This document shows positions 15,398 through 18,816 of a stretch of DNA of 64,000 nucleotides, piece by piece. Source of the DNA: the human T2T-CHM13v2.0 reference genome, Homo sapiens; assembly GCF_009914755.1 (NCBI RefSeq), contig NC_060925.1, one strand, 5' to 3'. Within the stretch, counting starts at the first letter, position 1. Each line of letters opens with the position of its first letter. Position numbers and translations under genes: made by a program. The notes beneath the pieces are model-generated. The model did not search any database. It was not told the origin of the DNA and saw nothing but the letters and a program-made list of their open reading frames with translations.

Positions 15398-16635
15398 CTG
15401 CAGAAAGGAGAAAGAAAGGAAAGGGCTTAAAAAACAAAAGAAGGGTTTCTTTTGTTGTTTTTATAACAGATATTCAGACACCATTCTTGGCCCCACCTAA
15501 ATGGAAAGAGAACTGAATGGCACCTTGGCAGGCTGACTTCTGATCCAAGACTCATAGCTGAGTCCAGCTTTAACCTTGCCGGGCCTCAGTCTCCCCACTT
15601 ACAACATAGGGTGGTTGAGCTACAGAGCCTCCTACATCCTTCAGTGTTTTTTTTGACGTTCTCTTATTTACTTAATAAGAATAACATTATTTTGCCTAGA
15701 TCTTCAAGTCTCTAAAAGACAGCCTGAGAGAGTCACGATAAAATGCAAAGAATTTCCCCGTGATCCTGGAAACTCTATAGAGTGTTAGTCCTCCAGTTCT
15801 CAAATCAGACTGCACACCCATGTCATGTCAGGTGTTCTGCATGATTAAGCCTGCAGCTGGCCTTGATGAGCACTTAATTCCCAAGTGAATTCTTACTGAA
15901 AACCAGCTTTTCAATTCACTGCTAATGACTGTAAAGTAGAATTTCAGGAGAAATTTGTTTGTGATTGGCTTCATTAGGGGATCACTTGCAGAGAACAGCA
16001 CTTGGTAAAACAACTCCTTCCTCTAAAACCAGCCTGTCTACTCGCAGTCTGTTCCCATTAAAGGGATGGAGGAGTAATGATGTACAGCCTGAAAGTTCTT
16101 TGAGTTTCTTGAATATGTTTCTTTTTGCTGTTTCTCCTATTATTATATATGTGTCATAATAATACACAGGCAAAGAATATTTCTGCACACCAAAAATGTG
16201 TTCCTAAATCAAAATAGTTCTCTCTAAACATTGTAATAAGTTATATGAATTATACTACAAAAATACAAATACTCTATATATTGATTTTTTAAGTAGTTAG
16301 CATATAGTTAATACTTAGTATTGATTACTTTATGCCTGGAAATTTACTGCATTTCAATGAACTCTAAGTGTACCTTTTGGTTCTAGCATTATCATAAAAA
16401 TTAAGAGAAAGAATTTCCAAAGAAATCATTTAGAACATGTGCTTAGATTATTTAGAAATATATTTTAATTAAAATTCTCAAATTACTGATATCCAAAATT
16501 ATATTTAAGAAATTATATTCTTATCAAAATCATGTATTCAGATTAGCAAAGAATAAATAGGAAAAATTTAAATCATTGATTTTTTTAGGGTAGAGAGACT
16601 ATGTGCAGGGAAAAGTGGGTATTAAATTTCTGGTA

Positions 16636-16939
16636 TTAGTTTGGTGCAAAAGTAATTGTGGTTTTTGCCATTAAAGGTAAACCTTTGAAGGTCACCTTAT
16701 TTAAAGGTAAATAATATTCCTTTACCACTATGCCAATTACTTTAAAAAATCAATATATAAAGTATTTGTATTTTTGTAGTAAAATTCATATAACTTATTA
16801 CAATGTTCAGAGATAACTATTTTTATTTAGGAACATATTTTTGGTGTGCAGAAAGGTAAATAATTTACCTTTAAAAAAGGTTACCTTTAAAGGTTTACCT
16901 TTAACGGCAAAAACCGCAATTACTTTTGCACCAACCGAA
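16636..16939. mobile_element. MADE1/Hsmar1-type mariner element with expanded arms and captured interior
   Basis: TA dinucleotides at 16634-35 and 16940-41; TIR ttggtgcaaaagtaattg(c/t)ggtttttgcc at both ends. Confidence 0.92.
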
Positions 16940-18816
16940 TACTACTATTCTGTGTGTGCAATTCTATTTTAAAAGAAACTGTTTTATTTAATGGGATAGA
17001 ATATTTTTCTATTTTCAAAACATCATTTTGGGGGAGCTTCCCTAGTTTATAGGAAGGCTGTGGGGTTTTGATAAAAGGTCTAGATTTGGAATTAGAAGAT
17101 CTAAGTTTATATCCCAGATTAACCACTTTTGCTCGCAGTGTGATATTGAGCAAGTCAACAACCTCCTCTAAGAGTAAACAAGAAAGGAGGTAAAGCAAAA
17201 AAACCTATGAGAATTAACAGAACTTGAGTTCCATTTCCACACGTATGACTTTGTGGGGTTGTTTTTGAGGTTAAATACTTATTTATATTTGAACTAGATA
17301 TGAGACTAACACACTTGTATGTATATGTACATTTATGATACTATAGGATATCTGGAATCATTATTGACTCTTCAGAGTTTCAATTAACAAGCAACATAAC
17401 CACATCTCAGTTATCTGCCTCCCAAACCTCCAGTATTTAGGTCCAATCGTTTTATCTGTACCATTTTCTGGGCAGGTCAGTCTTTATCCCCTCTCGCCAT
17501 TTATCAAAGGAGAACACTCATTTATCCATCTTGGAATTACATGCATGCTGGGGAAATTAATTTAAATAAATGTTTGTCTATACATCCCCAGTTCCTCTTT
17601 GGGATAAGGAGAAGATATTGACTAATGTTTTAGATTATTTGGGTTTATATATGTGAAGTTTTCATGATTATTTTTTATTTATCTTTTTCAGGCCTCTTTC
17701 TTTCATTACTTTCTATTCCTTCATTCTGCTCATTAAATATTTTCCAAATAAAAAACTCGATTTCATGTCTTACCCTCTTTATTCAATCATTTGAGGATAG
17801 TTTTCAAAATTGCTATGGATGAAGCAATTTTGAAATGATTGGCACAGGCACAAATTTGTCCTAAAGAATGAACCAGCTAAGACAAATTCTTCAGAATTCT
17901 CTATCAGATTGTTCTCTGGCTGTATAAATGGCTGGTGCCTAGTGCTCCTTAATCCAAGACATCTGTAGATTTTCAAAGAATTTCACTGTGAATCTTCATT
18001 CTCAAGTGTGTAGCTATGTCTCCATCGTTGTTATGAGTCACCTCTCTCTGAATAAGGAAACGGAGGCAAATTACTTGCAGTGAGCTCTCTGTTTAGATAG
18101 CAGCTAAAGTCAAATCTCTTCACACTTTCACCCCTTCTCCTGTCTTCCCCTTTCTATGCCCTCTGCTTGTAACTCATTCCAAAAATAGTCACTGATTACC
18201 TACTACATGCAGACACTGTTCCAGTCACAGGTGAGAAAATACATAAGACCCAGTCTCTGCTCTTGAGGAATTCACTATTTGGTGAGGATGATGCACACTG
18301 AGCGGGTAGAAGCCATGAGGGAGGTAAACAGGGAGGATATGGTAGTACACAGGATGGGAAACTGGTTCTGAGGGTGGGTTAGAGCAAGAAAATCGTGCTG
18401 TTAGCCTTGTGAGGGAAGGAGGAATTAGTCAAGTAAGGAGGAGAGACAGAATGTTCCAGAGAAAGAAAGTGTGCTAAGACAAGAGGCAAAATAAAAAGTC
18501 AGTTTCTGAAAACAAGAAATATTACCATTGGCCGCATCATGAGGTGGCAAGAAGACAGGAGTGTCAAGAAATGAGGCTGGACAGGTAGACAGGAGATGCC
18601 ATACAGGACCTGCCGGCCACACCCAGGGGCTTTATTTTGAGTCACAAAGACAGTGGAACTTCTGAAGGTAATACTTGAGAACAACTACTCTGATGGCAGT
18701 GTGTAAAGAATGGAATAGAGGAAAGCAAAAATTTTAAAAAGGAGAACTAAGTTTTTTTTTTTTAACTGAGTCTGTGGCAGTGGGAGAGGAAAAAATGGAT
18801 ATACCAAAAAATATAG

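What the first reader, a model, noticed from the sequence alone, without database searches (positions are those of the whole stretch)
16180..16941. Mariner MITE that captured an inverted copy of neighbouring DNA, giving a pseudoknot-topology double inverted repeat near OPN3 exon 3
Seen: TA-flanked Hsmar1/MADE1 termini enclose 304 bp. The interior (16729-16854) is the reverse complement of 16180-16304, about 420 bp away, with 8 substitutions and 1 indel in about 125 nt by eye, and a short A/T microhomology at the arm junction. Established: canonical MADE1 is only about 80 bp, binds SETMAR and is the source of miR-548 hairpins. Inference: local templated capture during gap repair or template switching (a Pack-MITE-like event). 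In OPN3 pre-mRNA the order is arm, interior, arm', interior', i.e. two long interleaved competing stems about 0.8 kb before the exon 3 acceptor.
Basis: partly seen in the sequence, partly recalled or inferred. Interest (0 to 1): 0.8.

Follow-up and report, generated by a model that had tools for sequence, protein, structure and literature searches.

The report
Fossil mariner palindrome with repair-copied neighbouring DNA
A dead 'MADE1' mariner mini-transposon in an OPN3 intron carries a back-to-front copy of DNA from about 420 bases away, most likely a scar of break or replication repair at its palindromic centre; similar scars sit in other MADE1 copies, and no function is shown.

Summary
TA-flanked MADE1/Hsmar1 termini span 304 bp (16636-16939). 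Inside, 16729-16854 is the reverse complement of 16180-16304: 8 substitutions and 1 indel in 126 columns. In the T2T genome this segment has only those two places. The composite is single-copy, and only the outer ~48 nt of each arm match other MADE1 loci.

The insert lies at the palindrome centre, flanked by a 22-nt direct duplication and 3-nt microhomologies read by eye.

The event is not a one-off. I tested 38 MADE1 end-pairs with enlarged interiors. Nine, this locus included, hold an inverted copy of otherwise unique DNA 143-1113 nt away. Five hold a direct copy 780-5074 nt away.

Best reading: a templated insertion at a break or stall in the palindrome centre, by fold-back priming or template switching. 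It is not a mobile Pack-MITE.

Nothing indicates a function.

The locus is a new member of a known kind. The recurrent MADE1-centre pattern is the interesting part.

The parts
16180..16304 (.). Segment A: the presumed source (template) of the captured DNA. It is unique intronic sequence.
   Evidence: It is the reverse-complement partner of 16729-16854, 92.9% over 126 columns. Those are its only two places in the genome. I saw no direct duplication flanking it (by eye).
16305..16632 (.). 328-nt spacer between the source and the MADE1. In the fold-back model this is the loop.
   Evidence: Coordinates.
16634..16635 (.). Left TA target-site duplication of the mariner insertion.
   Evidence: Read directly.
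16636..16682 (.). Left MADE1/Hsmar1 terminal inverted repeat, up to the original palindrome centre.
   Evidence: Only query positions 1/2 to 48/50 of 16633-16728 match other loci. There were 279 candidates, of which 40 were scored, giving 50 matches of 80-100% identity, two of them this locus's own arms. The arm is listed as an ITR in PMC6326780 Supplementary Table 1.
16683..16724 (.). Left locus-specific palindromic extension. It consists of small AAAGGT..ACCTT hairpin units.
   Evidence: In the whole genome, 16664-16728 matches only itself and its mirror at 16852-16911. The unit structure was read, D5 and I4.
16703..16724 (.). Left copy of the 22-nt direct duplication that brackets the insert.
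   Evidence: D1: 16703-16724 and 16852-16873, 91% identical.
16725..16851 (.). Segment A': the inserted inverted copy of A. Homology is clear over 16729-16854; the last AAA is shared with the right duplication.
   Evidence: (I1).
16852..16873 (.). Right copy of the 22-nt direct duplication.
   Evidence: D1.
16852..16892 (.). Right locus-specific palindromic extension, the mirror of 16683-16724.
   Evidence: (I2).
16893..16939 (.). Right MADE1/Hsmar1 terminal inverted repeat.
   Evidence: Listed as an ITR in PMC6326780 Supplementary Table 1.
16940..16941 (.). Right TA target-site duplication.
   Evidence: Read directly.

Best explanation
An Hsmar1-derived MADE1 mini-transposon inserted at a TA site in OPN3 intron 2. 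Its centre had grown into a longer palindrome: about 155 bp remain once the insert and one duplicate are subtracted. Later the palindrome centre broke, or stalled a replication fork.

The model I favour runs as follows.
1. The left end was resected.
2. Its 3' tail folded back on itself and paired through about 3 nt (TTA) just right of segment A, some 420 nt upstream.
3. A polymerase copied 125 nt of A. This automatically gives an inverted copy.
4. The extended tail was released.
5. It joined the right half of the element through an AAA microhomology. The central 22 nt were left duplicated on both sides of the insert.

The result is a single-copy, immobile repair scar. In the OPN3 pre-mRNA it incidentally creates a 125-bp duplex (A':A) that competes with the 91-bp arm hairpin. 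There is no evidence of function.

What is shown: the anatomy, the uniqueness in the genome, the flanking duplication, and recurrence at other MADE1 copies.

What is inferred: that A is the template and A' the copy, the break at the centre, fold-back priming rather than another form of template switching, and the timing.
For: Uniqueness. The interior has exactly 2 genomic places, both local. The arm extension is unique to this locus. By contrast, a genuine multi-copy mariner-type interior (L066) gave 376 candidates.

Acceptor and donor. A' is bracketed by a 22-nt direct duplication (D1). A has none that I could see (by eye). Canonical MADE1 copies have no such interior.

Junctions. The shared bases are TTA on the left and AAA on the right, read by eye.

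Recurrence. Six pattern searches listed 63 MADE1 end-pairs with enlarged spacing. The reversed-pattern control gave 0 matches in each call. I tested 38 of the 63 against their flanks or the genome.
- 9 of 38 hold an inverted local copy: this locus, L048, L058, L041, L046, L061, L069, L073, L079. The gaps are 143-1113 nt, median 396.
- 5 of 38 hold a direct local copy: L040, L059, L060, L070, L076. The gaps are 780-5074 nt, median 1283.
- The inverted copies lie nearer than the direct ones (exact Mann-Whitney p=0.004, or 0.018 with the weak case L072 included). Fold-back of a resected tail would predict this.

Background. 170,460 bases of flanking DNA in 59 loci held only 3 non-dispersed local repeat pairs. 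Two of them straddle a MADE1.

Centre duplications. A duplication of the palindrome centre also brackets the inserts in L048, L058, L040 and L073, read by eye.

Experimental precedent. Fold-back-primed inverted insertions of 2 to about 150 bp at double-strand breaks have been shown in yeast (PMC11724301, passages read).
Against: - No outgroup sequence was available. The pre-insertion state and the direction of copying (A to A') are inferred, not seen.
- A 22-nt duplication of the acceptor is not a simple prediction of fold-back priming plus end joining. It needs a staggered break, or a return switch upstream of the departure point.
- The yeast fold-back events are mostly under 14 bp with a 41-nt loop. 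Here 125 nt were copied across a loop of about 420 nt.
- The distance-orientation trend rests on 14 or 15 cases from a non-exhaustive, partly hand-classified survey. Two cases cross over: L076 is direct at 780 nt, and L046 and L079 are inverted at about 1.1 kb.
- Arm divergence (10 of 91) and A/A' divergence (9 of 126) are statistically indistinguishable (Fisher p=0.34). Capture at the time of transposition cannot be excluded.
- The survey was conditioned on enlarged elements and had no matched non-palindromic control. A specific role for the palindrome is therefore not proven.
Confidence: 0.55

Rival explanations
1. Replicative template switch without a double-strand break (short-range template-switch mutation, FoSTeS-like). 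A nascent strand that has just copied the palindrome centre dissociates, perhaps displaced by hairpin formation. It primes on the complementary-strand template about 420 nt behind and copies 125 nt in reverse orientation. It then returns 22 nt upstream of its departure point, which duplicates the centre.
For: The four-point template-switch model produces exactly this kind of local inverted copy, including events whose return point precedes the departure point (PMC7954356, passages read). A return upstream of departure explains the 22-nt duplication directly (D1). Complex multi-step junctions with small snap-back pieces are seen in L058 and L048. The short-range bias of the inverted copies also fits.
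Against: The described great-ape events act over 'tens to hundreds of nucleotides' and are usually much shorter than 125 nt (passages only). Direct-orientation copies from 0.8-5 kb away are not what an intra-fork switch predicts. Sequence alone cannot separate this model from the break model.
Confidence: 0.28
2. Abortive gap repair after excision by Hsmar1 transposase. The element was excised, the gap was refilled from the sister chromatid, and synthesis switched template to nearby DNA. This left 'filler' DNA between the re-copied ends.
For: Template switching during SDSA that captures 'stuffer' sequence is the accepted origin of many non-autonomous elements. PMC3814204 discusses Rubin and Levy 1997 and notes that Made1 itself shows MMEJ-type junction features (passages read). 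Arm and A/A' divergences are not distinguishable, so the timing is compatible.
Against: Copy-to-source identities across the 14 local-copy cases range from 80.6% to 96.1%. The events are therefore spread over a long time. By inference, some occurred long after the roughly 50-Myr-old burst (date from the PMC9062482 abstract). The inserts sit at the palindrome centre with a duplication of the centre, not at deletion junctions of a longer element. None of the composites was ever re-mobilised; each is two-copy where tested.
Confidence: 0.12
3. The double inverted repeat is a selected RNA element in OPN3 pre-mRNA: a switch between two long stems that affects exon-3 splicing, ADAR editing or small-RNA production.
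For: Both stems are thermodynamically strong: A':A is -155.6 and the arms -106.3 kcal/mol. The full 801 nt fold at -249.8 kcal/mol, z=-17.9. The two stems are mutually exclusive. Both lie in the transcribed intron, 0.8-1.5 kb upstream of exon 3.
Against: The stems have accumulated 7% (A/A') and 11% (arms) mismatches with no sign of compensation. All differences are mismatches between the arms. Strong folding follows trivially from any inverted duplication. There is no Rfam match, mir-548 included. Equivalent structures occur at other loci irrespective of gene context. No expression, editing or conservation data could be consulted.
Confidence: 0.04
4. The composite is a member of a mobile or dispersed family (a true Pack-MITE or an unrecognised repeat), or A is the derived copy and A' the original interior.
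For: The architecture, TIRs with TA duplications enclosing foreign DNA, is that of a transduplicating element.
Against: The interior has only 2 places in the genome and the arm extension only the 2 local arms. The genome-wide pattern search for this spacing returns this locus once. The 22-nt acceptor duplication brackets A', not A. The search tool skips very common words, so its counts are lower bounds. That caveat applies to abundant repeats, not to a two-copy result.
Confidence: 0.02

Closest known systems
Short-range template-switch mutations in great-ape genomes (four-point model; PMC7954356, passages read)
   Same: A local jump to the complementary strand copies nearby sequence in reverse orientation and creates a new inverted repeat. 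Return points upstream of departure, and complex multi-step events, are described.
   Different: Here the copied tract is 125 nt and the jump about 420 nt, at the long end of what that paper's passages call 'tens to hundreds of nucleotides'. The acceptor is the centre of a transposon-derived palindrome. The same acceptor type recurs at other loci, also with direct-orientation copies from up to 5 kb away.
Fold-back-primed templated inverted insertions at double-strand breaks (yeast; PMC11724301, passages read)
   Same: A resected 3' tail folds back on inverted microhomology on its own strand. It is extended by a polymerase, unwound, and joined to the other end. The result is a local inverted insertion with short junction microhomology.
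   Different: The yeast events are mostly 5-34 bp (up to about 150 bp) with a 41-nt loop at an enzyme-made break. Here 125 nt were copied across a loop of about 420 nt at a presumed spontaneous break in a palindrome, in the primate germ line, with a 22-nt duplication of the acceptor.
Filler DNA and abortive gap repair in cut-and-paste transposons (Rubin and Levy 1997, as discussed in PMC3814204, passages read)
   Same: Template switching during repair synthesis places foreign 'stuffer' DNA between transposon ends, with microhomology at the junctions.
   Different: That process is tied to transposase excision and usually comes with internal deletion of a longer element. Here a complete MITE gained DNA at its centre. 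The ages of the comparable events are spread widely, and none was mobilised.
Pack-MULE / Pack-MITE transduplication (plants; recalled, with the review PMC13317346 seen only in the search listing)
   Same: Terminal inverted repeats and a target-site duplication enclose host-derived DNA.
   Different: Those elements carry gene fragments from elsewhere and amplify as composites. This one carries non-coding intron DNA from 424 nt away and exists once.
Canonical MADE1 / mir-548 hairpin (PMC1784062, passages read)
   Same: The same termini and TA flanks. Intronic, and transcribed by read-through of the host gene.
   Different: It is 304 bp rather than a short hairpin. The arms are separated by a 128-nt loop and there is no match to any Rfam family. 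It is not expected to be a Drosha/Dicer-type precursor (inference).
Palindrome centre-break and cruciform-resolution instability (PATRR translocations, centre-break rearrangement; recalled, not read here)
   Same: Breakage focused on the symmetry centre of a palindrome, followed by error-prone joining.
   Different: The known outcomes are small central deletions and translocations. Here the outcome is a templated insertion with duplication of the centre, in an arm-short (about 40-90 nt) dispersed palindrome.

Membership tests
MADE1 (Hsmar1-derived MITE) | TA target-site duplication at both ends | tested here: met
   TA at 16634-16635 and 16940-16941.
MADE1 (Hsmar1-derived MITE) | Terminal inverted repeats homologous to other genomic MADE1/Hsmar1 ends | tested here: met
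   Positions 1/2-48/50 of the left arm gave 48 matches outside this locus at 80-100% identity, from 279 candidates of which 40 were scored. Both arms are listed as ITRs in PMC6326780 Supplementary Table 1.
MADE1 (Hsmar1-derived MITE) | Short (about 80 bp), nearly perfect palindrome with only a few bases between the arms | tested here: not met
The element is 304 bp. A locus-specific extension of about 42 nt on each arm and a 127-nt foreign insert separate the TIRs. It is a modified derivative, not a canonical copy. Canonical copies are visible (for example L009, L018, L027).
Pack-MITE / transduplicating DNA transposon | TIRs enclose host-derived DNA | tested here: met
   A' is a copy of intron DNA 424 nt away.
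Pack-MITE / transduplicating DNA transposon | The composite has transposed: several copies with the same interior and different flanks | tested here: not met
   The interior has 2 places, both at this locus. The spacing-specific pattern search finds this locus once.
Templated insertion / short-range template-switch event | The inserted tract is a copy of nearby sequence that is otherwise unique in the genome | tested here: met
   2 places, 93% identity, 424 nt apart, opposite strands.
Templated insertion / short-range template-switch event | Microhomology at the switch points | tested here: inconclusive
   TTA (left) and AAA (right) are shared at the junctions by eye. Three A/T bases in AT-rich DNA are weak evidence, and the left junction is blurred by later mutation.
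Templated insertion / short-range template-switch event | An ancestral or orthologous allele lacking the insert | not testable with these tools
   No primate genomes or human pangenome were available. The tool states that the window's genome has no relatives here (header).
mir-548 microRNA precursor family | Match to the Rfam covariance model / compact MADE1 hairpin | tested here: not met
   No Rfam match at E<=1 in 15900-17300 on either strand.

The most novel reading that the evidence does not exclude
The thousands of near-identical MADE1 palindromes act as dispersed natural 'break reporters' in the primate germ line. Their symmetry centres are recurrent sites of breakage or fork stalling. 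Repair there copies nearby unique DNA under an orientation-distance rule: inverted copies come from within about 1 kb, by fold-back of the resected tail, and direct copies come from further away, by invasion of a duplex. A duplication of the palindrome centre is often left around the insert. The OPN3 element would be one dated scar in a genome-wide, multi-million-year record of how human-lineage cells repair palindrome breaks. The same process would also continually create new long intronic dsRNA-forming inverted repeats.
Probability: 0.4. Interest if true: 0.65.

Novelty: new member of a known kind. Interest (0 to 1): 0.42.

Why it matters
The OPN3 locus on its own is a neutral-looking repair scar. 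It explains an odd 304-bp 'MADE1' and a strong predicted intronic RNA duplex, and nothing more can be claimed for it.

The wider observation is worth following up. In a small, non-exhaustive survey, 14 of 38 enlarged MADE1 elements, plus one weak case, had acquired copies of otherwise unique DNA from within about 5 kb. Local templated copying (14) outnumbered Alu-like insertion (7) as a cause of enlargement in this sample.

If that holds genome-wide, MADE1 copies give a large set of identical natural palindromes. With them one could measure palindrome fragility and templated-insertion repair in the human lineage: tract lengths, distances, orientation and junction types. Events could be dated against primate phylogeny. 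This bears on how inverted repeats, dsRNA-forming introns and complex small structural variants arise.

My four literature searches found no paper describing this for MADE1. They cover only the open-access library.

Tried and rejected
- Dispersed repeat or mobile composite: rejected. The interior and the arm extension are found only at this locus.

- Rfam scan of 15900-17300, E<=1: no match, so no mir-548-type assignment.

- L1-mediated retro-insertion at the TTAAAA-like centre: considered because 7 of the 38 tested loci carry Alu-like inserts there. Rejected for A'. It has no poly-A tail. The duplications flanking the inserts in L048 and L040 do not start at an L1-endonuclease-like site; this was judged by eye, and the motif is recalled.

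- Simple fold-back inverted duplication of the whole left flank: rejected. The spacer is not duplicated and A' lies between the two arms.

- A bias for sources at lower chromosome coordinates looked possible after the first 4 cases. It disappeared: 6 lower against 3 higher among the 9 inverted cases.

- A perfect separation of inverted (near) from direct (far) copies held for the first 11 cases. L076, L079 and L046 weakened it to a trend.

- Dating. The K2P distance between A and A' is 0.067, which gives about 15-34 Myr depending on the assumed rate (the rates are recalled). Arm and interior divergence do not differ significantly, so the order of insertion and capture stays open.

- SETMAR data. 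The supplement of PMC8327481 held as text has no OPN3, KMO or CHML entry. Supplementary Table 1 of PMC6326780 lists the two ITRs, and lists OPN3 in its gene sheet. No other number begins with 241761, 241762 or 241763, so no ChIP peak is listed there in the text held. The stored file may be cut.

I used 30-nt bins instead.
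Full report
OBSERVATION

- TA dinucleotides at 16634-16635 and 16940-16941 flank an element of 304 bp, 16636-16939.
- Its arms, 16633-16723 and 16852-16942, are 91 nt long and 89% complementary (I2).
- Between the arms, 16742-16854 is 95% complementary over 113 ungapped nt to 16180-16292 (I1).
- With one gap the homology runs over 16729-16854 against 16180-16304, at 92.9% of 126 columns. 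That is 5 transitions, 3 transversions and 1 gap column.
- The two copies are 424 nt apart.
- This cannot be chance. The partner scores E=1.7e-44 against the whole 3.1-Gb genome.
- Both arms appear in a published hg19 catalogue of Hsmar1 ITRs, at chr1:241762544-573 (+) and 241762818-844 (-). OPN3 appears in the gene sheet of the same file, whose title names 'Genes with ITRs' (PMC6326780, Supplementary Table 1, passages seen). The structure is therefore present in a second, independent reference assembly.

ANATOMY

Only the outer part of each arm is MADE1.

- When 16633-16728 was searched against the genome, there were 279 candidates, of which 40 were scored, giving 50 matches. The 48 matches outside this locus cover only query positions 1/2 to about 48-50, i.e. 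16633-16682.
- The inner 16664-16728 matches nothing but itself and its mirror, 16852-16911.
- This locus-specific extension consists of small self-complementary units of the type AAAGGT..ACCTT. There are three on each side, arranged as mirror images (D5 and I4).
- The foreign segment A' (16725-16851) sits exactly at the symmetry centre.
- It is bracketed by a 22-nt direct repeat, 16703-16724 and 16852-16873, 91% identical (D1). The repeat is itself a small hairpin.
- Subtracting the insert and one repeat copy leaves a palindrome of about 155 bp as the presumed acceptor.
- At the junctions the acceptor and the source share TTA on the left and AAA on the right. This was read by eye. It is weak evidence in such AT-rich DNA.
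- I saw no flanking duplication around segment A (by eye).

From the bracket duplication, and from the fact that ordinary MADE1 copies have no such interior, I infer that A is the template and A' the copy.

IS IT A REPEAT FAMILY?

No.

- The 132-nt interior has two places in the genome, both here.
- A pattern search for the two arm cores at this spacing finds this locus once.
- For contrast, the interior of another end-pair, L066, belongs to a real multi-copy family and returned 376 candidates.
- The tool warns that very common words are skipped and that counts are lower bounds. That caveat concerns abundant repeats, not a two-copy result.

RECURRENCE

I asked whether other MADE1 copies carry similar inserts. 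I searched the genome for the two 16-nt arm cores separated by enlarged gaps.

| Gap (nt) | Mismatches allowed | Loci listed |
|---|---|---|
| 120-150 | up to 2 | 12 |
| 151-181 | up to 3 | 14 (two paralogous pairs) |
| 182-212 | up to 3 | 10 |
| 213-243 | up to 3 | 9 |
| 244-274 | up to 3 | 12 (includes this locus) |
| 275-305 | up to 2 | 6 |

That makes 63 loci in all. The reversed-pattern control gave 0 in every call.

Coverage was as follows.
- Sequence was obtained for 42 loci.
- The interior was compared with its flanks (1.0-1.5 kb each side) or with the whole genome for 38 loci: 31, and 2.
- 4 fetched elements (L074, L075, L077, L078) were not searched.

Results for the 38 tested loci:

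- 9 hold an inverted copy of nearby DNA.
  - this locus: 126 columns, 92.9%, gap 424
  - L048: 203 nt, 96.1%, gap 396
  - L058: 183 nt, 90.7%, gap 315
  - L041: 78+34 nt, 88% and 100%, gap 773
  - L046: 160 nt, 80.6%, gap about 1103
  - L061: 47 nt, 95.7%, gap 143
  - L069: 105 nt, 91%, gap 192
  - L073: 103 nt, 91%, gap 244
  - L079: 35 nt, 94%, gap 1113
- 5 hold a direct copy.
  - L076: 96 nt, 85%, gap 780
  - L060: 143 nt, 88%, gap about 1189
  - L040: 142 nt, 95.1%, gap 1283
  - L059: 86 nt, 85%, gap about 2100
  - L070: 84 nt, 89%, gap about 5074
- 1 is a weak direct match (L072, 71%, gap 362).
- 1 is a tandem duplication that includes the MADE1 (L043).
- 1 has its only other copy on a different chromosome (L071).
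- 7 carry Alu-like inserts (L044, L050-L053, L064, L067).
- 5 carry other dispersed repeats (L049, L056, L057, L062, L066).
- 9 are two neighbouring MADE1s, spurious second anchors, internal MADE1 rearrangements or AT-rich expansions (L038, L039, L042, L045, L054, L055, L063, L065, L068).

The labels 'Alu-like' and 'L1-like' are mine. They rest on recognition by eye and on many hits to my other loci (57-74 hits for the Alu-like ones). No repeat library was used.

Two-copy status was verified genome-wide for this locus, L048 (29), L058 (30), L041 (31), L060 (35), L059 (36), L069 (47), L070 (48), L072 (50), L076 (58), L079 (59) and L046 (61). L073 (51) has its local partner plus 5 much weaker hits of 46-61 nt. 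L040 and L061 were checked only against my other loci.

As a background measure, 170,460 bases of flanking DNA in 59 loci held only three non-dispersed local repeat pairs of at least 75 nt and 85% identity. Two of them straddle a MADE1: L063, a 404-nt inverted pair at 96.8%, and L032, a 143-nt direct pair.

The survey is conditioned on enlarged elements and has no matched non-palindromic control. It shows that local templated copying is a common cause of MADE1 enlargement. It does not yet show that MADE1 is more prone to it than other DNA.

REGULARITIES

- Inverted copies come from nearer (median gap 396 nt) than direct copies (median 1283 nt). The exact Mann-Whitney p is 0.004, or 0.018 with the weak case L072 included. 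An earlier perfect separation was broken by L076, L079 and L046.
- A duplication of the palindrome centre brackets the insert in at least five cases. Here it is 22 nt. It is about 16 nt in L048, about 23 nt in L058, about 44 nt in L040 and about 15 nt in L073, read by eye.
- Several junctions contain extra snap-back or tandem pieces (L058, L048).
- Source-to-copy identities range from 80.6% to 96.1%. The events are therefore spread over a long period.

MECHANISM

These features match templated insertion during repair or replication at a structure-prone palindrome.

My preferred version is a break at the centre followed by resection. The 3' tail folds back onto its own strand at a microhomology. 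A polymerase extends it, which necessarily produces an inverted copy of DNA lying within the resected stretch on the same side. The extended tail is then released and joined to the other end.

This mechanism has been demonstrated at enzyme-made breaks in yeast, with tracts of 2 to about 150 bp (PMC11724301, abstract and passages). Direct copies from further away would arise by microhomology-primed invasion of a duplex.

The centre duplication requires a staggered break, or a return switch upstream of departure. One possibility for a staggered break is nicks at the base of a small extruded hairpin, followed by fill-in. That step is inference from recalled cruciform-resolution work, not something read here.

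The main rival is a purely replicative short-range template switch (PMC7954356, passages). It explains the duplication more simply and the distant direct copies less well.

Excision-gap repair by Hsmar1 transposase (abortive gap repair; PMC3814204, passages) cannot be excluded for this locus. Arm divergence (10 of 91) and A/A' divergence (9 of 126) do not differ (Fisher p=0.34). But the spread of ages across loci, and the absence of any re-mobilised composite, argue against it as the general cause.

The K2P distance between A and A' is 0.067. This gives roughly 15-34 Myr under substitution rates that I recalled rather than measured.

RNA AND FUNCTION

OPN3 is transcribed from the minus strand. 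Intron 2 therefore contains, in order, the right arm, A', the left arm, a 328-nt spacer and A, followed by 782 nt to the exon-3 acceptor.

- The pairings are interleaved. With no linker between the right arm and A', the two helices cannot coexist (geometric inference), so they compete.
- The A':A duplex is predicted at -155.6 kcal/mol and the arm duplex at -106.3 kcal/mol.
- The 801-nt stretch folds at -249.8 kcal/mol (z=-17.9) using A':A. With A blocked it folds at -170.8 kcal/mol using the arm stem.
- Such values follow from any inverted duplication.
- The stems carry 7-11% uncompensated mismatches, there is no Rfam match, and no conservation, editing or expression data were available.
- The SETMAR-binding core is present in both arms (catalogue entry). 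No ChIP peak with coordinates in 241,761,000-241,763,999 appears in the text held for that supplement, which may be truncated.
- I therefore assign a low probability to a selected function.

PRIOR KNOWLEDGE

Four full-text searches were run.
- MADE1 / Hsmar1 / palindrome.
- MADE1, template switching, filler DNA, abortive gap repair, Hsmar1, inverted duplication.
- templated insertion, palindrome, cruciform, transposable element, primate.
- MITE, captured, flanking sequence, template switch, mariner.

None returned a paper describing capture of local DNA by MADE1 elements. The library covers open-access papers and bioRxiv only, so this does not prove absence from print.

The mechanism classes themselves are well known: template-switch mutation, fold-back templated insertion, and filler DNA.

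VERDICT

The 'Pack-MITE' analogy holds for the architecture only.

The locus is a new member of a known kind of mutational scar, with no evidence of function. The recurrence at MADE1 centres, with an orientation-distance trend and centre duplications, is the part worth a proper genome-wide and phylogenetic study.

Noticed in passing
L005, L006, L008, L013, L014, L015, L023, L024 (around position 1501-1560 of each locus): Many of the best genomic matches to the left arm are half MADE1 elements. They stop at or within a few bases of the palindrome centre and continue into unrelated, mutually different sequence. No second arm was found within 1.5 kb. This is compatible with centre breaks followed by loss of one half, or with large insertions.
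   Followed up: no
L021, L028, L044, L050-L053, L064, L067; also 5 of the 6 loci listed: Alu-like insertions sit at or very near the MADE1 centre. The centre contains a TTAAAA-like motif, which is the L1 endonuclease target by recall. This suggests the centre is also a preferred retrotransposition target (classified by eye).
   Followed up: partly
L063:1067-1470 and 1745-2148: A 404-nt inverted repeat, 96.8% identical and not found in my other loci, straddles a complete MADE1. It may be a larger inverted duplication centred on the element.
   Followed up: no
L032:872-1014 and 1667-1808: A 143-nt direct repeat (93%) straddles a half MADE1.
   Followed up: no
L066:1526-1710 (chr7 of the assembly): The interior between mariner-like ends belongs to a high-copy family: 376 candidates, 86-89% identity over about 175 nt. 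It is probably a known longer mariner-derived non-autonomous element. It served here as a positive control for what a real family looks like.
   Followed up: partly
L071 (chr2 of the assembly), interior 51-150: The only other genomic copy of this MADE1 interior lies on a different chromosome (85% over 100 nt). It is either a distant templated insertion or an old low-copy repeat.
   Followed up: no
G000:C23:2344882-2345080 and G000:C24:2408853-2409050: This pseudoautosomal X/Y pair of MADE1 elements has both arms continuing into the same Alu-tail-like sequence in mirror orientation. The palindrome appears to have been extended by inverted copying of an inserted repeat (by eye, from the 80-nt ends only).
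   Followed up: no
window 16683-16724 and 16852-16892: Before the capture, this MADE1 centre had already grown by about 80 nt of mirror-arranged mini-hairpins (AAAGGT..ACCTT units). These are unique to this locus and are more diverged between the arms (6 of 40) than the TIR parts (4 of 48, counted by eye). This suggests earlier rounds of snap-back synthesis at the same centre.
   Followed up: partly
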